From Chiloscyllium plagiosum (taxonomy: Eukaryota), in NCBI RefSeq assembly GCF_004010195.1, contig NC_057752.1, forward strand, positions 11,616,915 to 11,658,111: a stretch of 41,197 bases of DNA, written 5' to 3'. Position numbers and translations under genes: made by a program. The notes under the pieces were generated by a model. It was given only the letters and a program-made list of their open reading frames with translations, was not told the origin of the DNA and made no database searches. Below are positions 3,434 through 28,701 of the stretch, piece by piece. The number at the start of each line of letters is the position of its first letter. Position 1 is the first letter of the stretch.

Positions 3434-4315
3434 TCAAGCAATTGGTGCAACCAAAGAGTTCAAAGTGTCCTTGATCAGTTGCCTAAACTTGGATAGCATT
3501 GCCAAATAAATAAAGGCATTTGCATAATAAGTAACAGTCAGCAAAATAATTGAAATGTCTCTACATATTTTGATAGCTTCAGTTCAATAATCTCTCCTAA
3601 CACTGTAACGTATGAAATTTATAATGCGCCCATCCATACAAGTACAAAACTGTTGAAAATAGCAAACAGCAAACTAACTGGCTTCCTTCTTTTCTGTCTC
3701 TCTGGGTCACTGTGACTCTCTCCTTTATTCTGACCCCTCAGTCCCTTACGGACTCGACTCGTTACTAAAATGTGCTTGACTGTCAGAGTGTTGAGTAACA
3801 GAATTAATACAAATGGGAGCAACGGGGTTATAAACTTGTTAAATATGTCATCCCCTCTCCATCCTGCCTCAGTCAAATAGCTTTTCTTCAGCTTACATTT
3901 CAAGGGCACATTGTTGACTATATACCAAGGTTCATATTTAAAGTAGATAGGCACATTTCTTGAAGCAGAATAGAATGCAGGTTGTTGCTAGAATCACTTT
4001 TGCAGTTCTTTCAGTGCAATACTTTGTTTTCAGTTTCTGGCAACAAATGACTACAAATCGATCAAAGGAGAAAAACCACAGTGAACCAGACAAAAGAGTC
4101 TCTGATCACAAAATGTAAGACATACAAGAAACTACACATGGGGATGAGTTCCAGAAAAGAGTCTTGTGAAGAATATTAAGGAAAAAAATTGCTTCAGGAT
4201 GGTGTTAGTGATAGTAGACAGCAGAATCATTGTTGACATGGCCACCAAGTAGCAATGGTGCAGGTGGAGATGCTACACTTGACACGTGAAAGAATCACAA
4301 TCACAAGTAAATTAA
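3434..4315 (-). pseudogene. GPR139/GPR142-like GPCR pseudogene (exon 2 only recognisable)
   Basis: Minus-strand acceptor ttctttctatcccgcag|TTAATTTACTT (VNLLVIVILSR..C.ISTCT) sits at the same position as in the intact gene. Later segments read SFDRFVVICCQKLKTKYCTE, the ORF 3619-3954 (TM4-TM6) and ANAFIYLAMLSKFR. Frameshifts occur near TM2 and DRF, with a premature stop after TM6. Confidence 0.9.
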
Positions 4316-5048
4316 CTGCGGGATAGAAAGAATTCAAAAGTAAAATGGTAGTTGTTCCTTAAAAATTCCCTGTGTTGCATACAAAAAGGGATGAAAGGAG
4401 TTTGTCTTCACCAGAAATACCTGTGGAATGTGGGTGGTTGGCTGGTGATTCACAGATTTTACTGCTCCCCAATCGTATCTTGGACTCCAACTGAAATAAA
4501 ATTACTTTCCATGAAGCCAAAGATCTCCATTACGATTCAATTTATAGGTTTAACTCTTTTAGGACAATCAAACAGAACATTACACACAAAGTGAGCGATT
4601 GCAGCAGAATCCCCTTTCCATCATCACTGCCAGATTTCAGTTCCTCTCCAGAATCAGGCCCACTATTCTGTATCAAGTATCCAAGCAGTTTTCCAATCTT
4701 ATCTCAGCTTGCTTTTGGACACTGTCCAAGCTTGGACCTGAGATGCAAATCTGTGATGTGAGCACAATGCAAAATAAAATAAAGCTTCTCAGGGATTTGG
4801 AAAGGCTGCATGACAGCACTAAAATAATGTGAATACGTATGAGCTTGCACACTTTGTTCAGAAAAACACTGAAATTATTTTCCAAAATGGTCAGAAATCA
4901 ATTTGTATTGTATATAATTGAAGTGCGAGTGCTTTGTAGGTATTAATATTATTTATTTTAGAGTTTGACAATCAGATTACTGGTGTTTGGGTATTCCTCT
5001 AATTTTTGTGATGGGTTTAAAAATTCATTACTTTTGTCTCTCAAGATG

Positions 5049-5394
5049 GACGGCACAGTTGCTCAGTGGTTTGCCCTGCTACCTCACAGCGCCAGGGACG
5101 TGGGTTTGATTCCAGATTCGGGTAAGTGTCCATGTGGAATTTTCACACTCTTCCTGTGTCTGTGTGGGTTACCTCTGGGTGCTCCGGTTTTCTCCCACAG
5201 TGGAAATATGTGCAGGTTAGGTGAATTGGCCATGCTGAATTCCCCATAGGGATGTGTAGCTTAGTTGCTTTAGTCAGTGGCAAATATATGATAGGGGAAT
5301 CGGTGTGGATGCGTTACTTTTCAAAGGGTTGGTGTGGACTTGTTGGACCGGAGGGCCTGTTTCCAAAGTGTAGGGATTCTAATTCTAATTCTAA
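5049..5394 (+). mobile_element. HE1-type tRNA-derived V-SINE
   Basis: Degenerate A/B boxes (TTGCTCAGTGG, GGTTTGATTCC), V-domain (TCTGTGTGGGTT...GGGTGCTCCGGTTTTCTCCCACA), CR1-derived 3' end and (ATTCTA)n tail. Confidence 0.9.
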
Positions 5395-5418
5395 GACACT
5401 GATTTACAAAACTCTAGT

Positions 5419-6095
5419 TGTCATAGAGCAGTTAACTGCCCTGTAAATGGAAGCTTGTTTACATCATGGCAGTTAAAACAGCAGAGGAAAGATCACATTG
5501 TGAGCTCCAACAATACTGATGAGTAAGGTATTCAATTTTGTTGGAAAACATTTCAATTCAGTGCATAATAGAGCTTACTGAGCTCAGAAGCAAGCAAGCT
5601 CTCTGATAAAGGAGATTTATCAAAGCAGTAAAGATGACAGGTTGCCTCAGTGAAAGAGTATAATTCATGCACATTCCAGTCCAAGTGTTTGGCCAAATTT
5701 TGCAGGTTAGTAAATGTAAACTCCCAGTTGTAGGAATATTAATTTTTTTTTTAATTCACAGTTTACGAGACAGGAACTGAGAACTAGCAGTTAAATCAAA
5801 TCTGGAAAATCCACATGGAATTTCTCTGCATCTTGAACACTGTAAAGAAATATTGTTGGGGGATGAGAGGGGTTTAGTGAAGTATTTCAAGTAATGTTAT
5901 CTTTAGCTCACTTGCTTTATTTTATTTTGATTTATTTTGTGTAATAAATATCTGTCTTATTGTCAAGAACAGTATTGCACCGTTGTCTTCCAGTGAAGGA
6001 CTGGCTTGTTAATTGAATGCAAGATGCTACCTATCGAGCCAGAATTAATTCTGGACCTGTATTCTCCAGTCTCAACCTCAGCTGCAATCAGAACA
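5419..6095 (+). mobile_element. Probable 5' LTR of a Gypsy (Gmr1-like) retrotransposon
   Basis: TG...CA bounded segment with AATAAA near 5943, ending ...AGAACA immediately before a PBS-like sequence and gag-like coding. The left boundary is uncertain. Confidence 0.5.
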
Positions 6096-6096
6096 T

Positions 6097-6115
6097 TGGG
6101 GGCACTTGCTGGGAT
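6097..6115 (+). other. Degenerate tRNA-Pro primer binding site
   Basis: TGGGGGCACTTGCTGGGAT versus the canonical tRNA-Pro PBS TGGGGGCTCGTCCGGGAT, located 1 nt after the putative LTR end. Confidence 0.55.
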
Positions 6116-6240
6116 CTGAAATCATTGACTTTAAGAAAACTCTTTGTCACTTTTATGAATACAGGTACCAAGAGTTTCTGAAATTAAAGTGGCTGTGCTC
6201 TGGTGAATTTTCTTGTACAGAAAATTTTCTTGTACTTAAA

Positions 6241-6586
6241 ATGAATTGGAATCTTGCAAAGAGTATTCTGCGAGTGGAATATATGACAGTGGAATATCAG
6301 AATTATTTAATTTGTACTAACCTGACAGAATAAGCAGCTAAACTGGAAACAGAAGCGGACATTGGACCTCCTCTAGAGGAGATGTTCACAGAGATTAATA
6401 AACTTTTGAACTTGGTAGAAGAGGAACCTGAAATTGAGATGTCACCACGAGACCCAATTAAGATGCAGTTTAATATGATGAGACTTTAGTTGGAAGTAAA
6501 AGACAGAGAGAGAGAGAGAGAGAGAAATGAATAGACTTGCGTGGGAAGAGGAAGTGAAGAAACTGCAATGGCAAAGGACACAGAGT
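6241..6586 (+). mobile_element. Gypsy (Gmr1-like) gag N-terminal remnant
   Basis: MNWNLAKSILRVEYMTVEY..NLTE*AAKLE followed by a coiled-coil-like MRL*LEVKDRERERER stretch. Interrupted at about 6587 by a CR1 tail. Confidence 0.55.
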
Positions 6587-9500
6587 TAGAACAAAGAACA
6601 AAGAACAAAAAACATTACAGCATAGGAACAGGCCCTTCGGACCTCCAACCCTGTGCCAATCCAGATCCTCTCTCTAAACCTGTTACCTATTTTCTAAGGA
6701 TCTCTATCCCTCTGCTCCCTGCCCTTTCATGTATCTGTCTAGATACATCTTAAATTACTCTATCATGCCCACCTCTACCACCTCCGCTGGCAATGAATTC
6801 TAGGTACCTACCACCCTCTGTGTAAAGAACTTTCCACGCATATCTCCCTTAAACTTTCCCCTCTCACCTTGAACTCGTGACTCCTACAATTGAGCTCCAC
6901 ACCCCCGTACCACTCTGGGAAAAGCTTCTTGCTATCCACCCTGTCTATACTCCTCATTTTTGTGTAGACCTCAATCAGGTCCCCCTCAACCTCTGTTTTT
7001 TGCATGAAACTAATCCTAATCTATCAACCTGTTTTCAAAGCTTTTGCTCACCATAACAGGCAACATCCTGGTAAACCTCCTCTGCACCCTCTCCAAAGCA
7101 TCCACATCCTTTTGGGAATGTGCTAACGTATGCAGTATTCAAAGTATGGCCGAACCAATGTCCAATACAACTGTAACATGACCTGTCAACTCTTGCACTC
7201 AATACCCCGTCCAATGAAGGAAAGCATGCTGTATGCCTTCTTGACCGCTCTATCGACCTGGTTCCCACCTTCAGAATACAATGGACCTGAAGAACCAAAT
7301 ATCTCTGCACATCAATTTTCCCAGGCCTTTTCCCTTTCCTGTCCTGTTCGCTCCAGAATTAGATCTTTCAAAATGTATCACCTATCATTTGCCCACATTG
7401 AACTCCATCTGCCATTTCTCTGTCTAACACTCCATTCTATATATATTCTGCTGCATTCTCTGACAGTCCCCTTCACTATCTGCTACTCCATCAATCTAAG
7501 TGTCATCTGCAAGCTTGCTAATCAGACCACCTATACCTTCCTCCAGATCATTTATGTATATCACAAACAGCAATGGTCCCAGCAAAAAACCCTGTGGAAC
7601 ACCACTGGTCACACTTCTCCATTTTGAGAAAGTCCCTTCCACTGCTACTCTCTGCCTGCTGTTGCCCAGCCAGTGCTCTATCCATCTAGCCAGTATACCC
7701 TGGACCTCACGTGACTTCACTTTCCCCATCAGCCAACCATGAAGAACCTTATCTATGTATATGACATCTACAGCCCTAACCTCATCAATCAACTTTGTCA
7801 CTTCCACAAAGAATTCTATTAAGCTGGTAAGACATAACCTTCCCTGCACAAAATCATGTTGCCTATCACTGATAAGCCCATTTTCTTCCAAATGTAAATA
7901 GATCCTATCCCTCCGTATCTTCTTCAGGAGTTTCCCTACCATGATGTCAGGCTCACCGGTCTATAATTACCTCAATTATCCCTGCTACCCCACTTAAACA
8001 AGGGGACGACATGAGCAGTTCTCCAGGTCTCTGGGACATCACTGGTGTTCAAGGATGTTGCAAATGTATCTGTTAAGGCCTCAGCTATTTTATCTCTTCC
8101 TTCCCTCAGTAAACTGGGATAAATCCCATCTGCACCTGGGGACTTGTCCACCTTTATGCCTTTTTCAAATACTCAACACTTCCACCCTCCTTATGCTGAC
8201 TTGACCTAGAGTAATCAAGCTTCTATCCCTAACCTCAACATCCATCATGTCCCTCTCTTCTGTGAATACCGATGCAAAGTACTTATTAAGAATCTCACTC
8301 ATTTTCTCCAACTCCACGCATAACTTTCCTCCTTTGTCCTTGACTGGGCCAACCAATTCTCTAGTTACCCTCTTGCTCCTTATATACGGATAAAAGGCTT
8401 TGGAATTTTCTTTAACCCACCTTGCTAAAGATATTTCATGACCCCTTTTCACCCTCTTAAATCCTCATTTCAGATTGGTCTACTTCCCCAATATACTTCC
8501 AAAGCTTCATCTGTTTTCAGTCACCTAGACATTATGTATGCTTCCTTTATTCTCTTAACTAGTCTCACATGTTCACCTGTCATCCATGATTCCCTCATCT
8601 TACCATTTCCATCCCTCATTTTCACAGGGACATTGCGCTGTTATCAACCACTCTTTGAAAGCCTCCCACACACCAAATTTGGATTTCCACTCAAACAACT
8701 GCTCCCAATCCACATTCACCAGCTCCTGCAGATTTGTTTTAATGTAATTGGCCTTCCCCCAGTTTAGCACCCTCCCGGATGCCCCTTACAAATTTTGTGC
8801 CATTTGATCCTCTAACACTAAGTGAATCCCAAACAATGTTGGAAAAATTAAAATCTCTCACGATCTACATCTTTCCATAAACTGTTCACATATTTGTACC
8901 TCTATCTCATACTCACTGTCTGGTGACCTGTGTTACAGCACCCTTCCTGTTTCTGAGCTCTGCCCATATTGCCTCACTGCTCGAGTCCTCTATAGTGCCC
9001 TCCTTCAGCACAGCTGTGATATCCTCTCTGACCAGTAATGCAACCCCTCCAACCCTTTTACCTCCCTCTCAATCCTTCCTAAAACAATTATGTCCTGGGA
9101 TATTTAGTTGCCAATCTTGCCCTTCCCTCAACCAAGGCTCAGTCATAGCAGTAACATCATACTCCCAGTCCTAAATTCATCTGCCTTAACTACAACACTT
9201 CTCGAATTAAAACAAATGCACCTCAGCCCACCAGTCCCTTTCCATTCACCATCTGCACCCTATGTACTCTGACCCTTAGTCACACTGACTTCATTATCTG
9301 ATTCTTTACAGGCTTCAGCCACTACGTCATGACTGTCCACTAACCTCCTCATTTGGGTCCCATCCCCCTGCCGACAGTGTTTGCAAAAGCACCCCCAAGG
9401 GCATTGGTTCCAGTCGGCCCAGGTGTAGACCGTCCAATTTGTAATCATCCCACAGAGCTGGTCCTAATGTCCCAAAGGTCCTAACCCCTCCCTCCTGCAC

Positions 9501-10415
9501 CATCTCTCAAGCTACTCATTCATCCTGCCTCTTCATTCATTTCTACTCTGATTAGCACATGGCACTGGTGGCAATCCTGAGATTACTATCTGTGAGGTCC
9601 TACTTTTTAACTTGGCTCCTAATTCCCCAAATTCTTCTTGTAGGACTTCATCCCGTTTTTTACCTATGTCACTGGTGCCTACATGCACCACGTACATGTT
9701 GTTCATCCTCCCTCTTCAGAATGTCTTGTAGCCAATCTGAGACATCCCTGACACATGAACCTGGGAGGCAACGTACCATTTTTGACCACAGAACCGCCTA
9801 TCTACTCCCCATACAATTGAATCACCTATGACTATAGTCCTTCCACTCTTTTCCCACCCTTCAGTACAACAGAGCCAGCCACGGTGCTATGAACCTGGCT
9901 ACTGCTGCCTTCCCCTGGTGAGCCATCTCCCCAACAGTATCCAAAACCGTTTACCTGCATTGGAGGAGGATGACTGCAGGGGACACCTGCGCTGCCTTCC
10001 TGCTCTTTCTCTCCCTTTTGGTCGCCCATTCCCTTTCTCCCTCAGGAATACTAAATCTGCGGTGTGACCAATTCGCTAAGCATGCTATCTCCGAGCTCCT
10101 CAGAATCACAGATGCTCCAAAGTGAGTCCATCCGCAGCTCCAAAGCCATCGTGCAGTCTAACGAGAGCTGCAGCTGGACACACTTCCTGCACGTGAAGGC
10201 GTCAGGGACATCAGCCACTTCCTTGAGCTCCCACATTGAGCAAAAGGAGAATAAAACGGGTATGGGATCTCAAGCCATTTTTACACTTAACTTAGTCCAA
10301 CTATAACATCAAATAATAGATAAATCAAATGAATTTTTAAAAATACTGTTCACGCTATTTCCCAACACATAATAAAGAAAAGAAAAAGCCCTACCTTACC
10401 AACACACCACAGAGT
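6587..10415 (-). mobile_element. Near full-length degenerate CR1 LINE (ORF1 zinc-finger/leucine zipper plus esterase region, ORF2 EN-RT)
   Basis: 3' tail (AGAACAA)n at about 6587-6610. RT motifs in ORF 7496-7942 ([38 protein letters not shown]). Tether region in ORF 8165-8452. ORF1 N-terminus MWELKEVADVPDAFTCRKCVQLQL at 10051-10236. Confidence 0.93.
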
Positions 10416-10419
10416 CTGC

Positions 10420-10520
10420 ATGAGTCATGGGTAAATATAGAGGAATGGGTCTGGGTGGGATAGTCTTCAAAGGGTCGGTGTGGACTTGTTGGGCAGCAGG
10501 GCCGTTTCCACACCGTAGAT
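10420..10520 (+). mobile_element. HE1 SINE 3' fragment
   Basis: GGAATGGGTCTGGGTGGG...GGGTCGGTGTGGACTTGTTGGGC...GTTTCCACAC matches the 3' ends of the other HE1 copies in the window. Confidence 0.8.
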
Positions 10521-10524
10521 CATC

Positions 10525-11760
10525 TGATAAAGAAAGTAGAGAACAGGATCTGGCCAGAAAACATAAAGTAAAGAAGGGAAGGAGAAATAGAAACATGAGG
10601 AATTTTATTATTCCGACGAAGGATTTGATTTAACTGAAGCTTAAATCTGAACGTATTACCTACCTCTGTGAAAGATGGAGTCGAATGTTATGTCACCTTT
10701 TTTTGACAATGTAGTTGGACAGACAAAGTGGTAAAAAGTGCTTTAACCTGAATGTTGTAAGGTATTTTTACAGGTAGAACTAACACTGTGTATGCCGGTT
10801 TATCAGAAGATCAATGTGCAGATCATGAAACTCTTTCAAAGTCAAAATTCAATATTTACGACCTTGTTGCTGAAGCTATCAATTAAAGTTTTGTGTCACA
10901 AATGCCCAAGAAAGTGTAGCATAGATTGGGAGTAAGACAATTAGTATCATCTCCTCATCGTGTAAGTATTCAAGGTGTAATACAATGATGGACCAACGTT
11001 GTAAGATCACGAACAGAGCTTATTGTAAATCTTGTCTTAATGATTCAGATAAAGGAATTCTCTTATTATCATTTTTAATGACAGTTGCTTTGAATGTGTC
11101 GATTGAATTGAGTCTTTTTGAAATGAAATATGACCATGAAATTAATGAAATTGAAAATGGGAAACAACCATTTAGCGACTATGATAATGAAACAAATATC
11201 TGCAGTTGATGGAGATCTGAAACAAAAACAGAAAGTGCTGGAGAAAATCTGGCCCCTTCTGTGGAGAGAGAAACATAGTTGACGCTTCGAGTCTAGTGAC
11301 ACTTCATCAGACTGGTGTACATTATTAACAAACATTAGCTTGGTTGTACAGTCTACATTTGAATGAGAAAGGAAATAGCTAAGCATTAGGGTAAGCATTT
11401 TCGATGGAAAGATGGTTGTCAGAATGTGAAGCAGTTTTTGTGAAGCTGAAGACAATTCTGATAAATCAACCAGCTTTTCCCACCCATGACTTTCCAGGGT
11501 TTGGAAATGATGGTGGATGCATATAGGTGCAATCTTGTTACAGGATGGTTAATCCTTCATAGAAAATCCAGCAAAGTCCTGTTTGAAGAAACGATATCAG
11601 TATCTGAGGACGCACTCCACCATAGAAATATTGACATTATTATTTGTTCTTCAACGCATTGAAATCTATGTTTGAAAGAGTAACAGAGAAATATTCATAT
11701 ACACTGCCCATTATCCATTGGCATTCAGTTAAAAAAGCTGAAAAGAAAATACAATTCAGA
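10525..11760 (+). mobile_element. Continuation of the Gypsy (Gmr1-like) element: gag capsid remnant and RT-connection/RNase H remnant, internally deleted
   Basis: About 10767-10885 translates FTGRTNTVYAGLSEDQCADHETLSKSKFNIYDLVAEA (capsid-like). About 11413-11726 translates WLSECEAVFVKLKTILINQP...VDA..IGAILLQDG*..ENPA..HSTIE..LQRIEIYV..IYTAHYPLAF (RNase H DAS/STIE/TDH-like motifs). Stops and frameshifts present. Confidence 0.8.
11190..11316 (-). mobile_element. Penelope-like terminal-repeat fragment (second family) with degenerate hammerhead motif
   Basis: Minus strand reads CTGATGA-A-GTGTC-ACTA-GACTC-GAAG-CGTC-AACT (11310-11277), followed by ...TTCTCCAGCAC...GATCTCCATCAACTGCAG, resembling the 3' ends of the other Penelope-like inserts. 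Confidence 0.65.
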
Positions 11761-11794
11761 AAGAGTGTGTTATTCCTGCTGTGTATTCCAATCC

Positions 11795-12495
11795 ACTTGC
11801 TAACACTGCAGCTATAAACTGACAAAAAAACCCAGTCGTGCATTTTCACTGGAATAAGGTATTCCAATTCTCTTTGTAATCCAAACTGAGTGCAGTTCAC
11901 CCCCAATGGATAATCTCAAGACTAAATGTTCACTGGCATCAGGGTTTCAATTCTGGGCATTAAGCGCCACTCTTTGCATTACCACATTGATAGATAACCC
12001 CAGGAATATGGAGCCACTAAGGTCAGAACTTCAACTCAGGTCAGAGTCACACACTGAGTACACTTCTACATCAACAGACAATGCTGGGTGCACGGGTTCA
12101 CTGGGATCACGCACTCCACTCCAGTTAATTACACTCACTGAGTGCAGTTATAGACTGACATACAACCTCAATAATATCTGGAGACACGATCAGATATTCC
12201 ATTCCAGTTAGAGCATCTCCCTGAGTGCAGTTGTTCCCTGACAGATAATCCCAGGACTCATTGTTCAACCGGTTTTAGGGATACAGCTCTGATCATTAAT
12301 GCACACTGGGAGCAGTTCAACACTGACAGATAATCCCAGTCATACATGGTCACTGGGAGTAGGCTTTCCATTCTGGCTGAGAAGCAAACTATTTGCAGTT
12401 CTACACTAACAGATAATCACAATAATGTGTATTCACTGGGATCAAACAGTCCATTCTGTTCAGTAAACAGACACTGAGTGTAGTTCAGCTCTGAT
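11795..12495. repeat. Old degenerate tandem repeat, period about 84 bp, about 8.5 units
   Basis: An ACTGAGTGCAGTT-like anchor recurs at 11885, 11969, 12053, 12137, 12220, 12305, 12388 and 12473, each followed by GATAATCCCAG-like and TTCACTGGGATCA-like motifs. Confidence 0.85.
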
Positions 12496-12496
12496 A

Positions 12497-12855
12497 TGGA
12501 GGTGCCGGTGTAGGACTGGTGTGCACCAAGTTAAAAAACATTCTATTTTGTTTTAAAAGCACACAATCTGCAGGCAGGGAATGCCGGCAGTAAATCTATG
12601 TAATATTTTATAAATTCCTGTTTTGGAAATAGAGCCTGGCTCAGGTTTGGGATACAGACAGATTCTAACCTCACGCCTTTAATGCATTGTCTGAACTGAG
12701 ATGTCATTTTTTTTTTAATAAAACTTTAAGTTATCTCGAGAATGTGACTTGAAAGATGTTGTGGGATTTACATATTAATGAAATGAAACCTGCAAACCAT
12801 TCTAAAAGATGAAAGACTTAACACAATCTACGTTTGTTCAATATATCGTTTCATA
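12497..12855. repeat. Interspersed repeat fragment (same family as 39993-40125, probably Penelope-like)
   Basis: Starts TGGAGGTGCCGGTGTAGGACTGGTGTGCACCAAGTTAAAAA, matching TGGAGGTGCCGGTGATGATTTGGGGTGTACAAAGTTAAAAA near 40002. Confidence 0.55.
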
Positions 12856-12865
12856 CATCATTTCA

Positions 12866-12973
12866 CTTATTTATGTAGCAACACTGTGCAAGTTCAGAGA
12901 AAAGTTTACAAACGCATTAATGTTTCCTTTTAAGCAAACTACTCAATGTCAGCATCAACAAAACAAATGGTAA
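12866..12973 (+). pseudogene. Truncated GPR139-like paralogue remnant (TM7 end/helix 8 only)
   Basis: LIYVATLCKFREKFTNALMFPFKQTTQCQHQQNKW* matches the intact gene's C-terminus (21/23 aa identical over the first 23), and the downstream flank is also homologous. Confidence 0.9.
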
Positions 12974-13138
12974 TGCCACACCATGTGAACTGGAATGGAT
13001 AACAGTGATCGCTGGATGAATGGATGAAAACAAAGGTTCTGTCGGATCAAATCTGTCAATTAGTGATGACGAGAAAGGTACTCAGTGCATTAATAAGAGC
13101 GTGTCATTAAACATTTAAGGCACACCAAAGACTACTGT

Positions 13139-13407
13139 GGCACGGTGGCTCAGTGGTTAACAGTGCTGCCTCACAGCGCCAGAGACCCGGGTTCAATTCC
13201 CGTCTGTGTGGAGTTTGCACATTCTCCCCGTGTCTGCGTGGGTTTCCTCCGGGAGCTCCGGTTTCCTCCCACAATCCAAAAATGTGCTGGTTAGGTGAAT
13301 TGGCCATGCTATAATTGTGGGTTGCTCTTCAGAGAGTCGGCGTGGACTTGTTGGACCGAAGGGCCTGTTTCCACACTGTAAGTAATCTAATCTAAAACAC
13401 TTGTAAT
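13139..13407 (+). mobile_element. HE1 V-SINE with 7-bp target-site duplication
   Basis: A box TGGCTCAGTGG, B box GGTTCAATTCC, intact V-domain and (TAATC)n tail. CTACTGT duplicated at 13132-13138 and 13408-13414. The paralogous site near 28880 is empty. Confidence 0.95.
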
Positions 13408-13499
13408 CTACTGTATCAAGAACAATGGATGAACATGAATAAATGGGGAATGATCAGTGTCACAGAGTGTCCTCGAGCAAGAAAGGAGACAGAATTCTG

Positions 13500-17890: not shown

Positions 17891-17957
17891 TCAATATCTT
17901 AAAGTGAGAGGGTGACAGCACATACTAAAGTGCTGGGAAGTGAGAGAAAGTAATAGC

Positions 17958-18407: not shown

Positions 18408-18905
18408 CGTCATGGAGTTATCCACCAGAGAAACAAATCCTTCTGTCCAACTTGCCTATGCTGAACAGACGTCCTAAATCTATCTAGTCCCATTTGCCAG
18501 CACTTGGCCCATATCCCTCTAAACCCTTACTATTCATATGCTCATCCAGATGCCTTTTAAATGTTGTAATTGACCAGCCTCTATCACTTCCTCTGGCATC
18601 TCATTCCATACATGCACCACTCTCTGCGTGAAAAGTTGCCCATTGAATCCTTTTCACATCTTTCCGCTCTCACCCTAAACCTATACCCTGTAGTTCTGGA
18701 AACCCTACCCCAGGGGAAATACCTTGTCTAAATACCCTATCAATGTTCCTTATAATTTTATAAACCTCTATAAAGTTACCCCCTCAGACACCGACACCTC
18801 AGCCTATTCAGCCTGCCCCTATAGCTCAAACCTTCCAACCCTGGAATCATCCTTGTAATCTTTTTCTGAACCATTTCAAATTTAACAACATCCTTCCGAT
18901 AGGAA
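18408..18905 (-). mobile_element. CR1 LINE 3' end
   Basis: Closely resembles 20921-21440 (CATATCCCTCTAAACCCTT..ATCCAGATGCCTTTTAAATGTTG). The minus strand encodes EVYKII-type motifs. Confidence 0.88.
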
Positions 18906-19490
18906 TGGTAACTCTTTGGAATTGTCTCCCCCCAGTGAAATGTGGGAGCTCAGTCACTCAGTCAGTTCACAGCAGATATTGATGGATTTTTCTTTACTAG
19001 AGACACCAAGGGAGACACCAAGTTAGAGCACAAACGCAGCAATGGGAGAGAGGGTCAGCACAATGTCCCTTTAACAAGTTAGGATGGGAAATGAAAGGTC
19101 TTGGAGTGTGGGGAAGAAAGATTGAATCCAAAGGGTATTGACTAATCAACTGAATCTGGAATCATGGGTAAATCATGGGTGAAGTGATGGTTGAAATGGG
19201 GTTGCTGATTGAGAATAGCTGAGCTGCTCTTACAGAGAGCTGACCCAGTCAGCACAAACTCTGTCGAAAAATGCTAGGTAGGAGTATATTGTGATATGCT
19301 TGAGCCGAAAATGGCTTAATTGAATTTCTTCATCTCAAGAGAGCTGCAGAACCCTCCAAAACAGATTGCTCACTATTCTCCTTCACCAGAGAGTTAACTC
19401 TGCTGTCATAATTCTTCTTAGTGCATTCGTCAGAAAATAAACAACTGGAAAATTTTGCAACCACAGATTCCCCTGGCAGTTCCTACAGGG

Positions 19491-19497
19491 TATAAAA
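19491..19497 (+). promoter_or_regulatory. TATA box of the GPR139-like gene
   Basis: Consensus TATAAAA in non-repetitive sequence, 80 nt upstream of the exon 1 ATG. Confidence 0.65.
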
Positions 19498-19570
19498 CAA
19501 GGGTGTTTATCCCACTCTGAATCAATGAGGTTACTGGCAGCATAAAGTGATTGATCTCTTCGCTCAGAAA

Positions 19571-19637
19571 ATGCATCGACCAATCCAAGTGATCAGGAAC
19601 ATATTCTACATTGCAGTAGCGGTACTCGGTTTGCCTG
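19571..19637 (+). CDS. GPR139/GPR142-like GPCR, exon 1 (MHRPIQVIRNIFYIAVAVLGLP + phase-1 G)
   Basis: AAAATGC start context, a hydrophobic first half of TM1 ending GLP and a perfect donor G|GTAAGT at 19638. Phase 1 joins exon 2 to give GLP-V-NLL, the class A TM1 GxPxN motif. Confidence 0.88.
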
Positions 19638-19663
19638 GTAAGTGTCTGTGATTGTTGAGGGTA

Positions 19664-19790
19664 GGGCTCTTGTAGTGCAGTGGTAGTGTCCCTACCCCTG
19701 AACTGAAGCAGGCCTGGGTACAAGCTCCCCCTGTTCCCCATGTGTTTCTCACATCTCTGTGCAGGTTGATTAAAAATTGCTGGAATTGTT
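19664..19790 (+). mobile_element. Probable degenerate tRNA-derived SINE head
   Basis: A-box-like TAGTGCAGTGGTAG and weak B-box-like GGGTACAAGCTCCC. Confidence 0.4.
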
Positions 19791-19813
19791 GAGGTTGCCT
19801 GAATCAATGTGGG

Positions 19814-19952
19814 CTGAAAAATGTGTTGCTGGAAAAACGCAGCAGGTCAGGCAGCATCCAAGGAGCAGGAGAATCGACGTTTCGGGCATAAGCCCTTTTC
19901 CAGCAACACATTTTTCAGCTCTGATCTCCAGCAACTGCAGTCCTCACTTTCT
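19814..19952 (+). mobile_element. Penelope-like fold-back mini-insert in the receptor intron, TSD up to 16 bp
   Basis: Perfect 24-bp inverted repeat (GCTGAAAAATGTGTTGCTGGAAAA / TTTTCCAGCAACACATTTTTCAGC) enclosing an antisense half-hammerhead (GGGC-TTAT-GCCC-GAAA-CGTC). CCTGAATCAATGTGGG at 19798-19813 and 19953-19968. Confidence 0.9.
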
Positions 19953-20689
19953 CCTGAATCAATGTGGGGTTTGTTTCCTGCTGTCATACTGTCACTGAAC
20001 ATGGCTGATCGAATCATCCCAACTCAACAGACATCCAGTCAGTAAAATCATTCTGTTAAATCCACTGTCTGATGGTTGTGGATAGATTCTGTTCCCTGAA
20101 CTGATATGGTGTCATAGAGACTTCTCTTCATTATAAAGCTATTGAATCACTGGAATGGTGTTTGCCTGTTCGAACAATCATAAAAGCAGGAAAGAATGGA
20201 AAAATGTTGTGGGAGGATCTCTCAATTCAGAATGGGTCTGAGTGTGGTCACTGACTGGAGTGAAACACCCGGGGCAAGTGATCATGAAGCATTGAGAGGA
20301 TCTGCCACTCTGACTGTTGTTTCATTGTTGTAAGTACAAACATGATCGTGTACAGAGGGTGTTGGTAGAAATATAGGAGATCGACACGAGGATGTTTGGT
20401 CTTACTTATGAAAAGCTACATTACATTGTTCTATATTGTGTTCCTACTTGCATACAAATCGACTGACAAACATCTTCAAGAATGAAACCTATTTATCACG
20501 TGGGGACTGCCTGTAGGGGAATTGCTGCACACACAGTATTGTGGTTAATACACTACAGGCTACCTTCAATTTAGTTCCTTCAGAAGAACTCTCACAGACA
20601 ACCATGTACCGAAATAGTGATTTGAACTTTATTGCATGTAACAAACAAAGTGTGACACCTCAAGTTAGCAAATTAAGCCTCACAACTGA

Positions 20690-20752
20690 ATAGGGTTGGT
20701 GTGGACTTGTTGAGCCGAAGATGCCTGTTTCCATACTGTAAGGAAACTAAAT
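20690..20752 (+). mobile_element. HE1 SINE 3' tail fragment
   Basis: GGGTTGGTGTGGACTTGTTGAGCCGAAGATGCCTGTTTCCATACTGTAAG. Confidence 0.7.
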
Positions 20753-20920
20753 CTTATTTCATTGGAAAGTTAAAAAAAAAGTTTGAGTAAGCTCTGGTAG
20801 AAATGATATTAGAAAAACTTTTTAGCTTGTTATCAAAACATGGATAAATTGTTTTTGCTAACATCCAATTTGAACTCTGAATTTGGGATGAGAAAATGTT
20901 TGTGCATGTACCTTGTATTT

Positions 20921-21652
20921 ATAGAGTCAGAGAGGCATAGGAATGTACAGCACGGAAACAGGCCCTTCGGTCCAACCCATCCATGCTGACCAGATATCCA
21001 AACCTAATCTAGTCCCACCTGCCAGCACCTGGCCCATATCCCTTCAAACCCTTCCTATTCATATACGCATCCAGATGCCTTTTAAATGTTGCAACTGTAC
21101 CAGCCTCCACCTTCACCTTACTCTGGCAGCTCATTCCATACACGTGCCACCCTCTACGTGAAAAAGTTGCCCCTTAGGTCTCTTTCTTAGGTCTCTTTTA
21201 TGTCTTTCCCCTCTCACCCTGAACCTATGCCCTCGAGTTCTGGACTCCCCCACCCTGTGGGAAAGACTTTTGTCTATTTATTCTATCCATGCCCCTCATG
21301 ATTTCATAAACCTCTGTAAGGTCACCCCTCAGCCACCGATGCTTCAGGGAAAACAGCCCTAATCCTCCAACCCTGGCAACATCCTTGTAAATCTTTTCTG
21401 AATCCTTTCAGGTTTCACAACATCTTTCCGATAGGAGGGAGACCAGAATTGCACACGATATTCCAACAGTGGCCTAACTAATGTCCTGTACAGCCACAAC
21501 ATAACCTCCCAACTCCTGTACTCAATACTCTGACCAATAAAGGAAAGCATACCAAACACCTTCTTCACTATCCTATCTACCTGAGACTCCACTTTCAAGG
21601 AGCTATGAAGCTGCACTCCAAGGTCTCTTTTTTCCGCAACACTCCTTAGGAT
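20921..21652 (-). mobile_element. 5'-truncated CR1 LINE
   Basis: ORF 21359-21616 (LYRTLVRPLLEYRVQFWSPSYRKD...QKRFTRMLPGL) plus the CR1 3' UTR and tail. Confidence 0.92.
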
Positions 21653-22724
21653 CTTGGAAAATGTTTCATTTAAGACAACAAAAATGTAAAATGTGAGATT
21701 ATTAAAATATTTTCTGACAGTTTTTTTAAAAATAAACTGAATATATGTAAGTATAACATGACATCACCTAGTAACCTGGGCTCTGCCCCTTCTGAGGCCA
21801 GCAGAGTGCCCTCGTCCTGCTGTCTGTTTTAAATCTTCTGACACGCCTCCTAAGTGGTGTGATTTATGATTCCGGGAATGATTAACGCATTGGGCTTCTT
21901 CCAGTCAACTCTGTTGCTTCGGAACAGGTTTCAAGAACACAGCAATGGAGCTGGAAGTCTTACAAAGACAAAGTCTTTGAAAACAGCAGAACTCCTAAGT
22001 GACTACAATCATCTGAATCTCCAGTATAAGGGATTTGTTGAAAAGTACCAAGCCTGGATGTAATTGTTTCTGAAATTGAGATTGATAACATTACTTGATA
22101 CCAGGTGCTAGTTCAAACATGCAATAGGACATTTCATCTAATGATAAAGGGCAAATAGTTGTAAATCATTAAATTTTAACTTGAAAATAAGAGAAGCTAA
22201 CAGAATCAGTCCGGGCAGTTTTAATTTGGAGAAAATAAATGCTGGGAAGAATTAATTGGCCACTAATGAATTCTGTCAGCCGGACAATAATGCAAGGACA
22301 CAAAACAAAGTTGAGTCAGTTGCAGTCAATTTTGAATTTGGAATAATTTTGAAAAAAAAGGTAGCCAATTATAACCAAACAATTTATATTTGAGAAAGAG
22401 CAAACAAGCAAAAACTGGGCATGGGCATGCTTGTAAACCAGGCAGTAATAATGTTAGTTTGTCTCCTTTGAAGCTGTTGTGGAGACATGTCGTTTTTGTT
22501 TAATCTGGACAGTAAAGCGTTCTCTGGGATTCCTGAATCATCATAATGGGAATTGATGGACGGGGTGGGGGGGGGGGGGGGGGGCACACTTAAAATAGAA
22601 GAAGAGCAATAGGTAGAAAGTGACTTAGCATCAAGTGGAAATGGGAATGACTCAGTGCAGTTAAACGGAATATTGTTAATGAAATCCAAGTGTATATAGA
22701 ATGAGATAATTAACAGCTTCTCTT

Positions 22725-25490
22725 GCAGATACATGCGTGGACGAACATCTGGCCCTTCGAGCCTGCTCTGCCATTCAATAACATTATGGCTAATCTTTTC
22801 GTGGACACAGCTCCACTTACCCATCCTCTCACCGCACCCCTTAAATCCTTTATTTTTCAAAAAGAAAATCGACCATAACTTTAAAAATGTTTACAGAAGT
22901 AACGCCAACTACTTCCCTGGGCAAGGAATGCCAGAAATGTACCACCCTCTGGGTGAAGAAGTTCCTTCTCAATTCAGTCCTAAATTTGCTCCCTTTAATC
23001 TTGAGGCTATTCCCACTTTTCCTAGCTTCAGTGGAAACATCCTCTCTGCTTCTATCCTATCTATTCTCTTCATAATTGTATATGTCTCTAAATGGTCCCC
23101 CCTCACTCTTCTGAATTCCAATGAATATATTCCCAATCTCCTCAGTCTCTCCTCAAAAACCAACCCCCTCAACTCCAGAATCAACCACCTCTTCACCCCC
23201 TCCAGTGCCAGAACATCCTTTCTCAAGTCAGGACACCAAAACTGCACACAGTACTTCAGGTGTGGCCTCACCAGAACCTTGTACAACTACAACACATCTC
23301 TCTGCTTTTAAACTCAATCCCTTTAGTGATGAAGGAAAACATTCCATTTGCCTTCTTAATCACTTGTTGCACCTGCAGACCAACCCTCTGTGATTCATGC
23401 ACAAAGACTCCCAGGTCCCCCTGCACAGCAGCATGCTGCAGCTTTTTCCTATTCAAGTAATAACTTTTTTTGCTGTTACTCCTATCCAAAATGGATGACT
23501 TCACATTTATTAACATTATATTCCATCTGCCAGACTGTTGCCCACTTAGTCAATGCATCATTGTTCCTCTTCAAAGTTTCACAGTCCTCTGCACACTTTG
23601 CTCTGCCACTCACCTTTGTGTCATCTGTAAACTTTGGCACCCTACACGTGGTCCCCAACTCCAAATCATCGATATAATTTGTAAATAATTGCAGTCCCAA
23701 CACCGATCCCTGAGGCACACCACTAGTCGCTGATTGGCAGCCAGAATATTTATTCATTTATTCCCAATCTTTGCTTATTGGTCGTCAAGAAATCCTCTAT
23801 CCATGCTAACATTTTAACCCTGACGCCATGCATACTTATCTTATGCAGCAGCCTCTTGTGCGGCCACTTGTTGAAGGCCATTTGTTCCATCCAGGTACCC
23901 CATAACTACTGGATCTCCATTGTCCACCTTGCTCGAAATGTCTTCATAGAATTCCAAAAGATTTGTCAAGTGTGACCTGCCCTTCATGAACTCATGCTGC
24001 GTCTGTCCAATGGGACAATTTCTATTGAGATGCCCTTTGATTTCTTCCTTGATAACAGACTCAAGCATCTTCCCCACAACAGAGGTTAAGCTAACCCAAC
24101 TATATTCCCCATCTTTCATCTATTCATCATATCCTATAACAAAATACCCCTTCTCATCCTCTAAAGGACTAACATTTACTTCCACCACTCTTTATCGTTT
24201 TATAGATTTACAGAAACTTTTGCTATTTGTCTTTATATTCTGTGCTCGTTTTTGTTCTAATTTTCGGTGTTACTTTTCTTTACAGCACTTTTTGTGGCTT
24301 TGTGTTGAGTTTTAAAGTTTTCCCAATCTTCTAGTTTCATGCTTTTCTTGACCACTTTGTATGCCTTCTCTTTCAACCTTACTTCCTTAGATACCCATGG
24401 CAGATTATCCCTTTTCTTCCAGTCCTTCCCTTTCACTGGAACATACGTTTGCTGAGTACTTTGAAAAATGGCTTTGAAAGACTTCCACTGCTCGTCAACT
24501 GACCACCATAAATCTTTGTTTCCAGTCCACTTTAGCCAGGTCCTCCCTCATTCTGTTGTGGTCCCCCTTGTTCAAGCACAGGACCCTGGTATTGGATTTT
24601 ATCTTCACACTCTCCATCTGTATACTAAATTCAACCACACTGTTGATCACTCCTTCCAAGAGGATCCCTAACTATTAGGCTATTAGTTATTCCTGTCTCA
24701 TTACACAGGACCAGATCTAGGAAAGCTTTATCCCTCATCGGTGGCATTACCTACTGTTCAAGAAAACTATCATGGATACACTCAACGAACTCCTCTTCAA
24801 GGCTACCCTGACCGAGCTGGTTCGACCAACCTACATGTAGATTAAAATCTCCCATAATAGCCGTACCATTTTTACAAGGCATTACTTATTTCTTGGTTTA
24901 TCGCCCACCCCAATTCTGCCTTGAACTTAAACCATCCTGCACACATGCTAACGTGCTGCTTACCTTTTTATTTATCATCCTTATTCCTTCCTGTCGTTTT
25001 CCCTTCCCTTCTCCTTGACTCACAAATTTAAAGTCCTAGTGACCACTCTATTTATCCTTTTCGCTTGAACACTGGTTCCAGATCGGTTCAGGTGCAGAGC
25101 GTCCCATCAGTACAGATCCCCTGGTTCCAAAACTGCTGCCAATGTCCCATGAAAGGGAACCCCTCTTCCCCACACCATTCCATGAGCCACGTGTTCACTT
25201 CCCGAATTTCCTTATCCCTAAGCCAACTTGCACGTGGCTGGAGCAAATTGCTTGATAATCCCCATTGCCTATGTTGTTAGTCCCAATGTGAATCACAACA
25301 ACTGGATTCCACCCACCCTCCCACTCCAATAACCTTTCAAGCCGGTCCTGCATCCTGGCACCAGGCAGACAACACACCATGCGGGACTCCCAATCTAACT
25401 TGCACCTATCCTCCTAATGGTAGGATGCCCCATAATTACCATTTGTCTTTTTGCTCCCTCCTCTTGAATGGCCTTCTGCACTTGTGCTGC
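22725..25490 (-). mobile_element. Degenerate CR1 LINE with deletions (ORF1 esterase to ORF2 3' end)
   Basis: VRPHLKYCVQFW, SGVPQGSVLG..FT.YIDDL..FTDDTK and QHEFMKGRSHLTNLLEF. ORF1 SGNH-esterase motifs VCCLPGA and VVIHIGTNNIG at 25195-25380. Confidence 0.92.
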
Positions 25491-25492
25491 TG

Positions 25493-25830
25493 TCATAGAG
25501 TATCACAGAATCCCTACAATGTGGAAACAAGCCATTTGCCCAACAAGTCCACACCAACACTTTGAAGAGTATCCCATGCAGACTCATTCCCCTACCCCTA
25601 TTACTCTCCATTTCCCCTGACTAATGCACCTAAGCCGAAGGATGCCTGGACACTATGGACAACTCAGCATCTTCAATTCACCCTGATCCACACATCTTTG
25701 GACTGTGGGAGGAAACTGGAGCACCCAGGGGAAAGCCACGCAGACACGGGGAGAATGTGCACAGTTACCCGAGCCTGGAATCGGTCCCTGGCGCTGTGAG
25801 GCAGCGGTGCTAACCACTGAGCCACAGTGG
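25493..25830 (-). mobile_element. HE1 V-SINE
   Basis: Reverse complement shows GTGGCTCAGTGGTTAGCACCGCTGCCTCACAGCGCCAGGGAC, a V-domain and the CR1-type tail. Confidence 0.92.
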
Positions 25831-26768
25831 GCAGGAAAATAAGGGAGGTGGGTTCAACTCTGGCCAGCTGGCTCATCCTCTCTACAGTCCATGCGTTTGT
25901 TACAGGGAACTGAATTAACTGATTTGGCCACCACGTGGAACACTGAACCAAGTGAAGATGTTAAACAGGCTCCCTCGAAAGATCAGTCGAATGTCAAGAA
26001 TGTCTGGCGTGCTCTTCGGATACTGATGTAAGTGTGCAAAAGGGATTGTTGTATCTGAAGTAACTGACATACTGGAATGCATAGTGAAAATGCACTGAAG
26101 AATAGAACACCGATGTGTGCGCCTACTCGATAAAATGATTATTGTATCTTGGAAGGTCACAAAAATAATGTTTAAATGATAAGGCACTGGCATATAACAC
26201 ACAGAGATACTGAATGTTGGTTTTGGTGGGAAGGAGATAAAAATTACAATTTGAGAGAAAGAGGAGAAAATATTGTAGGAATATCCGCAAGATGGGGGAA
26301 AGTGAAGGAAGAGCTGGAGAAGGTTTGAATTCCATGTATAATTTGCTCACATGTATAATCAGCTTGCAACTATTGAACAACATGTATGTGCTCAAGGGAG
26401 GCCTTAATAATCTGTGTTGAGGATCTCTGGGGTGGAATGGGATCCTTACAAAATGCTGTTGTCAAACCAGACAATTAAGGGTTAATTGATAAGGGATAAT
26501 GGACATGGCAATTAGGAATTGTGACCAAGTGGAAGATTACTGGCCTAGTACAAAAACAATTGATTTTGGCTGTTGTGGAACTGCACATCCTTGACTGCAT
26601 TTCAGAACCATTCTTTTATCCAGTTGACAATGGGTCACCTGGACGATGTTCCCAGCTGATTGTCTGTACAATGGAATTTCTGGAAAAGGACTGAAATGGT
26701 GCTGCAGTACGTAACCAGAATAGCATTAATGTCAGGGACTCTGTCACTCTTGTCGGATTTCACCTTGG

Positions 26769-26921
26769 TTTTGGATCAGTGGTGCTGGAAGAGCACAGCA
26801 ATTCAGGCAGCATCCGAAAAGCTTCGAAGCTTTTCGGATGCTGCCTGAATTGCTGTGCTCTTCCAGCACCACTGATCCAGAATCTGGTTTCCAGCATCTG
26901 CAGTCATTGTTTTTACCTCGT
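26769..26921 (+). mobile_element. Penelope-like fold-back insert forming a perfect 108-bp palindrome (26772-26879), 14-bp TSD
   Basis: 54-bp arms with zero spacer, centred between 26825 and 26826. The tail TCTGGTTTCCAGCATCTGCAGTCATTGTTTTTACCT is identical to that at about 36684-36719. GGATTTCACCTTGG at 26755-26768 and 26922-26935. Confidence 0.93.
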
Positions 26922-27811
26922 GGATTTCACCTTGGACCAGGATTGAGAATGATGCCAGGAACCCCGAGGCCCCCACACCAGCAGTCAGAAAGTAGGGTTC
27001 CCCACATGCAGGGGTCAAGGAGACTTGTTGTTAACCATGCCAAAAGTAGTTTCAGCTAATAGATTCACTCATTAGCTTGGGTATGTCTCGAATGTATATT
27101 AAATGGATTAAGCTAATAAATCTGATTTATATCAAAAAGCACATGTTTTCTTGTAATAATTTGATCAACCTAAAGGAACCTGAAAGGGATTTTCATCCTA
27201 ACAATAGACTGACAAGTAGTACGTTGGAATAAAGGGAAATCTACCAGATTTCTTGTACATGAATCTATCAACAAACGTTTGACTCATTGCTAAAAATGGT
27301 CGACAAGTGATTTTAAAAAATCCCTGAATGATGTGCAATTACCAACAAGGATTGGCTCGTTAACGTGGCTTGGGAGTTGTGGGTGGAGTTAAAAGTAATG
27401 GTGAGTAAAGCTGATCGACAGGGGGTAAGATCATAACATGTGACATGTGAAGGACAGACACTCAAGTCAGAGAGTGAGTCTATTGGGGTAGTGAGTATTT
27501 CTTTGAATGTCAGGCACTTTGCAACAGAAAAGGAAATAGAATACGTTGCAGCCGGTGGAGCAGAGGGTCTACTCCAACGTTACACTTCTCCAGCTTTAGA
27601 CACACAATGCCTCACTGGAATATTAAAGCACTGACCTGCTTCCAGTGAGCAGGCCGCTACATCCCTCTGACAGATACCTGTTCAATCTGATCTGAACACC
27701 TTGCAGACCTGTTGAAGTCATGGCTGATTTTTTTTTTCAATGGTCTGTCCTCAGAAACTGTGAATGATTTTTCTGTAATTACTAATCTCCTTTCTCTTCA
27801 CTCTCTCACAG

Positions 27812-28701
27812 TGAATTTACTAGCACTTGTGATTTTATTCAGAGGAAAATGTGGGATATCCCCATGCACCACCTGTTACCTGATCGCCATGGCAGCAGCA
27901 GATCTACTGTACATTATCCTTGAGGTCATACTGTACCGGATCAATAATTATTATTTCCCTCTGAATTTCTTGGATGTGACGACTGTCTGCAGAGTTCACT
28001 ACACCCTGCGCCGTGCTGCCACCGATTGTTCTGTCTGGTTCACCGTAACTTTTACCTTTGATCGATTTGTTGCCATTTGTTGCCAGAAGTTGAAAATGAA
28101 ATATTGCACCAAGAAAACTGCGACAGTGGTTCTAGCAACAACAGGCATTCTGCTCTGTTTCAAAAACATTCCCACCTACTTCAGGTACGAAGCTAAACGA
28201 ATCATTAACAATGTCGAGTGGTACTGCACCAATACTGAAGCATATTATAGTGATCCCATATGGAGAGGATTCAATAGGTTTGAAAAGGTCTTAACTCCAA
28301 TGCTCCCATTTGCTTTAATTCTGTTGATCAACACTCTGACAGTCAGGTACATTTTAGTGGCCAGTCGGGCCCGTAAGAGATTGAGAGATCAGAGCAAGGG
28401 GCAGAATCATTGTGACCTAGAGATGGAGAGCAGAAGAAAGTCTATCATTTTACTCTTTTTTATATCCAGTAGTTTCATCCTTTTATGGATGTGGTACCTT
28501 TTGAAATATTTTAATACCTTAGATCCATTATTAGAAGAAAATTCTGAATATATATTCCGATACGTCGCAAATATGCTCCGGGATATAAATTGCTGCACAA
28601 ACACACTTATTTATGTGGCAACACTGTCCAAGTTCAGAGAAAACTTTACAAATGCATTGATGTTTCCTTTTAAGCGAATTATTCATTGTAAGCATCAATA
28701 A
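27812..28701 (+). CDS. GPR139/GPR142-like class A GPCR, exon 2 (spliced product 318 aa, apparently intact)
   Basis: Branch-like CTAAT at about 27782, pyrimidine tract and acceptor CACAG| at 27811. Open frame with seven-TM motifs YLIAMAAADL, SVWFTVTFTFDRFVAIC, TM3/ECL2 Cys pair, LPFALILLIN and CTNTLIY..SKFR. No specific orthologue symbol can be assigned. Confidence 0.93.

What the first reader, a model, noticed from the sequence alone, without database searches (positions are those of the whole stretch)
3434..28701. Birth-and-death receptor cluster: one live gene, one pseudogene, one stump within 25 kb
Seen: three paralogous loci in two orientations at different stages of decay. Established: such clusters typify chemosensory and immune receptor families. 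Inference: these GPR139-like genes could form an under-characterised variable receptor repertoire in sharks, which have few canonical olfactory receptors. Function cannot be read from this window.
Basis: partly seen in the sequence, partly recalled or inferred. Interest (0 to 1): 0.72.

Follow-up and report, generated by a model that had tools for sequence, protein, structure and literature searches.

The report
Huge hidden shark receptor gene family
The intact gene, broken gene and fragment here belong to a very large family of cell-surface receptors in sharks, rays and chimaeras, whose ligand pockets differ from copy to copy as smell receptors' do, though what they detect and where they act is untested.

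Summary
The live gene has two exons (19571-19637 and 27812-28701, 8.2-kb intron) and encodes a 318-aa class A GPCR. The minus-strand pseudogene (3434-4318; five frameshifts) is an older paralogue from another subfamily, not a copy of the live gene. The stump (12864-13137) is the 3' end of a younger duplicate of the live gene. The family is very large: 2180 of 2989 candidate protein clusters hit, the top 120 all from sharks and rays, 38 of them on one horn-shark contig. 'GPR139' is only a nearest-relative label. The family forms its own clade, separate from two single-copy GPR139-like vertebrate genes. New here: across paralogues the ligand pocket is hypervariable (identity 0.48) while the G-protein face is conserved (0.84). 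The single-copy relatives keep the pocket conserved (0.94, 0.76), and presumed shark orthologues mostly keep it too. This fits a repertoire tuned to many ligands. No expression or ligand data were obtained, so chemosensory versus immune versus other use is open. Ten literature searches found no description; two earlier notes of this scan flagged the same family.

The parts
19491..19497 (+). TATA-like box, 80 nt before the start codon of the live gene
   Evidence: Seen in the sequence; promoter function inferred
19571..19637 (+). Exon 1 coding part (22 codons plus 1 nt): short N-terminus and first half of TM1
   Evidence: matches annotated homologue N-termini; top profile hit
19638..27811 (+). 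Single phase-1 GT-AG intron, 8174 nt, rich in repeats
   Evidence: the splice itself was not seen in RNA
27812..28701 (+). Exon 2: rest of TM1 to TM7, helix 8 and stop; open frame; AATAAA at 28697 overlaps the stop
   Evidence: (AlphaFold2 model, pLDDT 88.8)
3434..4318 (-). Pseudogene exon-2 remnant of another subfamily; splice acceptor still present; five frameshifts, 1-2 internal stops
12864..13137 (+). Stump: last 31-32 codons plus 3' UTR of a duplicate of the live gene; stop codon lost
   Evidence: (75% aa to the live gene, 72% to zebra shark P0001, 59% or less to the next hits listed)
13408..13497 (+). Duplicated 3' flank continuing after a repeat insertion at 13139-13396; matches 28880-28968
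   Evidence: 78% identity
14359..15275 (+). Further colinear match to the live gene's 3' flank 29343-30246
   Evidence: 71% identity; may be an old shared repeat inside the duplicated block
12492..12863 (+). Sequence abutting the stump's 5' break; its first 47 nt match a dispersed element at 39998-40044
   Evidence: link to the truncation is inferred

Best explanation
The window is a piece of a tandem cluster of a cartilaginous-fish-specific multigene family of class A GPCRs, derived from the GPR139/GPR142-like group and evolving by birth and death. Shown: gene anatomy, decay states, family size in relatives, a separate clade, a conserved G-protein face with a hypervariable pocket. Inferred: each intact copy binds a different small ligand or peptide in the orthosteric pocket and signals through one shared G protein (Gq/11 by analogy to GPR139). 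The family therefore works as a repertoire for sensing many external or microbial chemicals, in nose, taste, skin, gut or sentinel cells; amino-acid-like or peptide-like solutes are the first guess. Copies arise by local segmental duplication and die by frameshift or deletion.
For: Family size: 2180 of 2989 candidates at E <= 1e-5; the top 120 are all elasmobranch. 38 of those 120 share one 74.47-Mb Heterodontus contig length, 36 distinct at 90% identity. The live gene's nearest cluster is 8 sequences under 10 accessions on one 19.6-Mb zebra shark contig. Members also occur in rays, skates and Callorhinchus. Tree: family 32 rows monophyletic at 95/83, apart from lineages A and B. Mean pairwise identity at 29 pocket versus 30 G-protein-face positions: paralogues 0.48/0.84 (83 of the 120 rows), lineage B 0.94/0.85 (21), lineage A 0.76/0.76 (92 of 120). 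At matched 80-90% overall identity the pocket scores 0.60 (249 pairs) against 0.98 (127) and 0.92 (351). Seven tree-picked presumed orthologue pairs keep 21-29 of 29 pocket residues. The live gene shares 25 of 29 with zebra shark P0434 but only 9-19 of 29 with the 83 relatives. Activation motifs are intact (D2.50, DRF, P5.50, F6.44, W6.48, N7.49, Y7.53). GPR139 and GPR142 respond to L-Trp and L-Phe, and GPR139 signals mainly through Gq/11 (PMC7318219 passages).
Against: No expression, ligand or codon-level selection data for the family. Among the youngest duplicates, differences are not clearly enriched in the pocket: 4 of 26, 3 of 44, 1 of 26 and 3 of 18 variable sites, with about 10% expected. 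The extracellular half is generally more variable in paralogues, so relaxed constraint could explain part of the signal. Pairs are not independent and 68 of the 120 top rows are one species. BW numbers were assigned by hand from motifs. Near-identical zebra shark copies could be assembly or annotation duplicates. In catshark the 50 top olfactory-library genes included no GPCR (PMC11979771 passage), and V2Rs already account for robust olfactory expression (PMC10116579 passages).
Confidence: 0.62

Rival explanations
1. The family is an immune or barrier repertoire on leukocytes, mast-like or epithelial cells that senses microbial peptides or metabolites, as FPR and MRGPR families do in mammals (recalled). 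This overlaps the best explanation in mechanism and differs in tissue.
For: The same signature (clustered, birth and death, variable pocket) is expected for immune GPCR expansions. Expanded families in skate and blue shark are enriched for immune and signalling terms (PMC12361510 passage).
Against: The nearest solved relative of the family profile is GPR139 (94.7 bits), then peptide receptors; chemokine receptors score lower, 67.5 bits at best. No immune-tissue data were seen.
Confidence: 0.2
2. The copies are receptors for a diversified set of endogenous or conspecific peptides (neuropeptides, reproductive signals, pheromones).
For: GPR139 is activated by ACTH and MSH peptides. The GPR139/142 group shares an origin with protostome MIP, FMRFamide and myosuppressin receptors (PMC8514136 passages). 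Lymnaea has about 450 FMRFamide-receptor-like genes, read by the authors as peptide receptors (PMC11589774 passage). Pocket positions 3.33, 3.37, 5.39, 5.42, 5.43 and 7.42 are often charged.
Against: Receptors with one fixed endogenous ligand should keep the pocket, as lineages A and B do. I know of no matching peptide-gene expansion (not searched).
Confidence: 0.12
3. Copy number is a by-product of an unstable, repeat-rich region; most copies are redundant or decaying and pocket variation reflects relaxed selection.
For: Two of three loci here are dead. The window is dense with repeats. The youngest duplicates show no clear pocket enrichment.
Against: Neutral decay would not spare the G-protein face (0.84) while halving pocket identity (0.48). 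Presumed orthologues keep their pockets. Live versus pseudogene dN/dS is about 0.32.
Confidence: 0.08

Closest known systems
Human GPR139 (and GPR142), class A orphan receptors for L-Trp and L-Phe
   Same: Best solved-structure hit of the family profile (94.7 bits against 75.8 for NTSR1). Two-exon gene (PMC7318219). W6.48 shared. 114 of the top 120 relatives are named 'probable/putative GPR139'.
   Different: The window protein scores only 26.4 bits against it, below SSTR3, whereas true orthologues are about 70% identical down to zebrafish. F3.33 and H5.43 are replaced. The family has the TM3 and ECL2 cysteines that GPR139 lacks. Multi-copy rather than single-copy.
Single-copy GPR139-like vertebrate lineages: A (sharks, coelacanth, ray-finned fish, amphibians, reptiles) and B (amphibians, sturgeon). 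Rinne et al. 2019 (PMC6504862) named GPR210A and GPR210B in this group; which of them matches A or B was not checked.
   Same: Closest non-chondrichthyan relatives (107 and 83 bits). B shares the D-P-E-M..RR motif before TM6.
   Different: About one cluster per species with a conserved pocket. Sharks keep their own lineage-A gene. The order of branching among A, B and the family is unresolved. The main text of Rinne et al. has no occurrence of 'shark' or 'cartilaginous'.
[quoted passage not shown]
   Same: Works like them in clustering, pseudogenes, species-specific blooms, short N-terminus and variable pocket with conserved signalling face.
   Different: Not a member of any: only Pfam 7tm_1 hits. 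Sharks have 6-13 OR, 3-5 TAAR, 2-4 ORA and 8-43 V2R genes (PMC10116579); one horn-shark contig alone holds at least 36 distinct members of this family. Olfactory expression is untested.
Invertebrate Srw / FMRFamide-receptor-like expansions (nematode srw, Aplysia chemosensory-like genes, Lymnaea)
   Same: Same broad branch of class A. Atlas neighbours carry PF10324 Srw. 29 of 90 Aplysia chemosensory-like genes are Srw-domain (PMC3963977 passage).
   Different: Independent expansion at 24-29% identity to the invertebrate hits. The window protein itself has no Srw hit at E 0.1.

Membership tests
Class A (rhodopsin-like) GPCR | 7tm_1 profile above the curated cut-off and a seven-helix fold | tested here: met
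   59.6 bits against cut-off 30.5; model pLDDT 88.8, pTM 0.85; TM-score about 0.7 to peptide-receptor structures
Class A (rhodopsin-like) GPCR | Activation motifs and TM3-ECL2 cysteines | tested here: met
   N1.50, D2.50, C3.25, DRF, P5.50, F6.44, W6.48, N7.49, Y7.53 present; P6.50 and P7.50 absent family-wide
GPR139 orthologue | About 70% or more identity to human GPR139, single copy | tested here: not met
   26.4 bits, 20% identity in the fold match; very many paralogues; benchmark from PMC7318219
GPR139 orthologue | Trp/Phe pocket residues F3.33, H5.43, W6.48, N7.38/7.39 | tested here: not met
   Window gene has R, K, W, N. Family: R 65%, K 54% or T 37%, W 100%, Y 52% (residues from PMC5430874)
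GPR139/GPR142-like group (broad) | GPR139 is the nearest characterised receptor | tested here: met
   Family profile, lineage A and lineage B all rank GPR139 first among solved chains. GPR139 and GPR142 themselves were not in the trees.
GPR139/GPR142-like group (broad) | Intron at the same TM1 position as in GPR139 | not tested
   Two exons in both; the same position is recalled only
Canonical olfactory receptor families (OR, TAAR, V1R, V2R) | Family-specific Pfam profile or clade | tested here: not met
   Only 7tm_1 at E <= 0.1
Chemosensory receptor repertoire (functional class) | Large clustered family with pseudogenes and lineage-specific gains | tested here: met
Chemosensory receptor repertoire (functional class) | Pocket variable among paralogues, conserved among orthologues | tested here: met
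   not clearly enriched among the youngest duplicates
Chemosensory receptor repertoire (functional class) | Sparse, one-receptor-per-cell expression in a sensory epithelium | not testable with these tools
   The one read lay gave too few informative reads and tissues are not named
Chemosensory receptor repertoire (functional class) | Activation by external chemical ligands | not testable with these tools
   Needs heterologous assays

The most novel reading that the evidence does not exclude
This family is the main, so far overlooked chemosensory receptor repertoire of sharks, rays and chimaeras: a further vertebrate olfactory or taste family, larger than their OR, TAAR, V1R and V2R sets combined, recruited from the GPR139-like branch that also gave chemoreceptor-like expansions in nematodes and molluscs, and expressed sparsely in sensory cells.
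Probability: 0.35. Interest if true: 0.92.

Novelty: new variant of a known kind. Interest (0 to 1): 0.74.

Why it matters
Cartilaginous fishes are known for keen smell yet are reported to have only about 65 chemosensory receptor genes in catshark (PMC6368271) and a 'relative paucity' of GPCRs (PMC8455134). A family with dozens of members on a single contig and a hypervariable ligand pocket contradicts the paucity view whatever its tissue. It also makes the question directly testable with existing organ RNA data and in situ probes. It may have been missed because of the uniform 'probable GPR139' label, query-based searches limited to known families, and pipelines that drop families above 100 copies (stated in the methods of PMC12361510). 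If the role is immune instead, it would be an undescribed receptor repertoire in the oldest jawed vertebrates.

Tried and rejected
No whole genome is held for this window, so intact and broken copies in this species were not counted. Expression: no RNA holder listed. In the lay of four runs on 19300-29300, repeats swamped the signal; the exon 1-exon 2 joint is not among the 15 of 1077 joints shown; X7 laid nothing; X6 gave a depth of about 2 in one exon-2 bin, which may be paralogue reads; X1 (RNA only a guess) gave two shallow contigs about 95% alike. None of this counts for or against expression. X2's summed depth of 60,120 in bin 27984-28317, against 7-62 in unique intron bins, fits many near-copies but is not a copy number. 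Rejected: ORF 27691-28701 as an intronless gene; the pseudogene as a duplicate of the live gene (the live gene is row 69 in its hit list; AU test); a TATA-like string near 3335 as a fourth promoter (no exon-1 profile hit); sequencing error as the cause of the pseudogene (29 of 120 conserved residues lost). No exon 1 found for pseudogene or stump; best local DNA scores were near shuffled values and not recognisable. Rfam: 0 matches. Fold search did not single out GPR139 (rank 6). Literature: ten searches listed no paper describing this expansion; word searches inside PMC11979771, PMC8455134 and PMC12361510 found no 'GPR139' or 'GPR' mention. The white shark genome paper was not held, the supplement of PMC11979771 could not be read, and Hara et al. 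2018 was not examined; supplements and subscription papers may mention the family.
Full report
Observation. The window is repeat-rich DNA of a shark; the nearest relatives are from carpet sharks (78% to a zebra shark protein), and the species was not determined. A tblastn of the long ORF found three family loci, and a family HMM found no fourth.

The live gene. The ORF at 27691-28701 lacks the first half of TM1. A polypyrimidine-AG acceptor precedes 27812, and a 67-nt exon with ATG at 19571 and a phase-1 GT donor at 19638 completes a 318-aa protein; a TATA-like box lies 80 nt upstream. Annotated homologues begin with nearly the same peptide, and a profile from 74 of them ranks this exon far above anything else in the window. 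The protein hits Pfam 7tm_1, folds as a seven-helix bundle at pLDDT 88.8 from a 90-sequence alignment, and keeps the class A activation motifs. It departs from 9 of 128 near-invariant family positions, within the 0-15 range of 83 relatives. 'Live' here means intact; transcription was not shown.

The dead copies. The minus-strand copy has five frameshifts and one or two internal stops and has lost 29 of 120 conserved residues, including D2.50. It is closer to another subfamily: the live gene is row 69 in its hit list and a tree forcing the two together is rejected (AU p = 0.027, with frameshift-ambiguous stretches masked). Live versus pseudogene dS is about 1.0 and dN about 0.33. The stump is the last 31-32 codons and 3' flank of a duplicate of the live gene itself: 75% aa identity to it, UTR 144 of 176 identical, stop codon lost, with colinear flank matches out to 15275. 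So the cluster records at least two separate births and two deaths.

Family size and range. The exon-2 protein hit 2180 of 2989 candidate 90%-identity clusters; only the best 120 were listed, all from sharks and rays, 114 of them named 'probable/putative GPR139'. By my reading of the names, 68 of the 120 are Heterodontus; 38 share one 74.47-Mb contig length and 36 of those are distinct at 90%. The nearest cluster is itself a bloom of 8 sequences under 10 accessions on one zebra shark contig, in two types; the near-identical ones could partly be assembly duplicates. An exhaustive search gave 105 representatives at E <= 1e-30; look-ups place divergent ones in catsharks, skates, rays and Callorhinchus. 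I could not count copies in this genome.

Relationship to GPR139. The single protein scores 26.4 bits against human GPR139; the family profile ranks GPR139 first among solved chains. Two other GPR139-like lineages are closer. Lineage B gave 20 amphibian clusters from 20 genera plus sturgeon among 25 hits of 1675 candidates. Lineage A gave 145 hits of 1739 candidates; the 120 listed span fishes, amphibians and reptiles and include three shark rows from three species. In a 47-row IQ-TREE tree (LG+G4, no mixture model) the family is one clade (95/83), A and B are each 100/100, and their branching order is open; the tool warned that long branches meet at the invertebrate outgroup. GPR139 and GPR142 were not in the tree. 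Rinne et al. named GPR210A and GPR210B in this group from bony vertebrates (PMC6504862 passages).

The main new test. I assigned BW numbers by hand from motifs and fixed 29 pocket-lining and 30 G-protein-facing positions before scoring. Mean pairwise identity, pocket/G-protein face: paralogues 0.48/0.84 (83 of 120 rows, length 290-345), B 0.94/0.85 (21 rows), A 0.76/0.76 (92 of 120 rows, length 300-370). The pocket is below the transmembrane mean in paralogues (0 of 20,000 random draws as low) and above it in both controls. At 80-90% overall identity the pocket scores 0.60, 0.98 and 0.92. Seven presumed orthologue pairs picked from the tree keep 21-29 of 29 pocket residues, and the live gene matches zebra shark P0434 at 25 of 29 against 9-19 for the 83 relatives. 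Against this: pairs are not independent, one species dominates, the whole outer half is more variable in paralogues, and the youngest duplicates show no clear pocket enrichment. Of four residues needed for Trp/Phe activation of GPR139 (PMC5430874 passages), only W6.48 is kept family-wide.

Mechanism. Shown: anatomy, turnover, conserved signalling face, divergent pocket. Inferred: many ligands, one output pathway. GPR139 signals mainly through Gq/11, and GPR142 senses the same amino acids in pancreas and gut (PMC7318219 passages). All catshark olfactory neurons appear to be microvillous TRPC2/Go cells (PMC10116579 passages), which could host such receptors, but that is conjecture. The same broad branch has expanded in Lymnaea and Aplysia. 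I put chemical-sensing repertoire in the broad sense at 0.62, of which an immune or barrier use is about 0.2; endogenous or conspecific peptide signalling at 0.12; neutral amplification at 0.08.

Expression. No RNA holder was listed and the single lay was uninformative; neither counts as evidence.

Literature. Ten searches listed no description of this expansion. I saw passages only of PMC11979771, PMC8455134, PMC11589774, PMC12361510, PMC5430874, PMC6368271, PMC6504862, PMC10116579, PMC8514136, PMC3963977 and PMC7318219; no supplements; nothing of the white shark genome paper. Published counts are 65 chemosensory genes in catshark and 8-43 V2Rs across 11 genomes. Two earlier notes of this scan describe the same family in other genomes; they are not independent support. 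One reports a 26-bp array before each promoter; no 24-28-bp periodicity was found upstream of this live gene.

Verdict. The locus is real and is an ordinary piece of an unusual family. The family is a new variant of a known kind: a large vertebrate GPCR repertoire that I could not find described, with a sequence signature of ligand diversification. Interest 0.74; 0.92 if it proves to be the main shark chemosensory family (probability about 0.35).

Noticed in passing
window 11808-12494: Degenerate tandem array of about eight 83-85-bp units (60-77% alike) between the pseudogene and the stump, missed by Tandem Repeats Finder and found nowhere else in the window. It could be a remnant of a family promoter cassette; untested.
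   Followed up: partly
window 30266-32644: 37-bp minisatellite, about 59 copies at 77% matches, starting just after the duplicated 3' flank of the live gene.
   Followed up: no
P0233, P0276-P0295: A conserved single-copy GPR139-like orphan receptor listed only in amphibians and sturgeon, with N instead of D at 2.50 and a near-invariant pocket; possibly the bony-vertebrate counterpart of the shark family and a handle on its ancestral role.
   Followed up: partly
P0251, P0300-P0417: A second single-copy GPR139-like orphan in sharks, bony fishes, amphibians and reptiles; two rows are annotated as TMEM183A isoforms, suggesting linkage to that gene. No bird or mammal row among the 120 listed.
   Followed up: partly
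window 19524-19544: Short out-of-frame upstream ATG frame (6 codons) between the TATA-like box and the start codon; the in-frame 5' UTR translation resembles the stretch before the start in zebra shark models.
   Followed up: no
(public annotations): Many public models of this family carry wrong-looking N-termini or miss the 67-nt first exon, and some carry other names (FMRFamide, capa, vasopressin V2 receptor-like), so annotation-based counts are unreliable.
   Followed up: no
window 1-1800, 7035-8400, 22900-25100, 34250-35300, 39300-40700: Decayed LINE-type reverse transcriptase fragments and many SINE copies; element names not checked.
   Followed up: no
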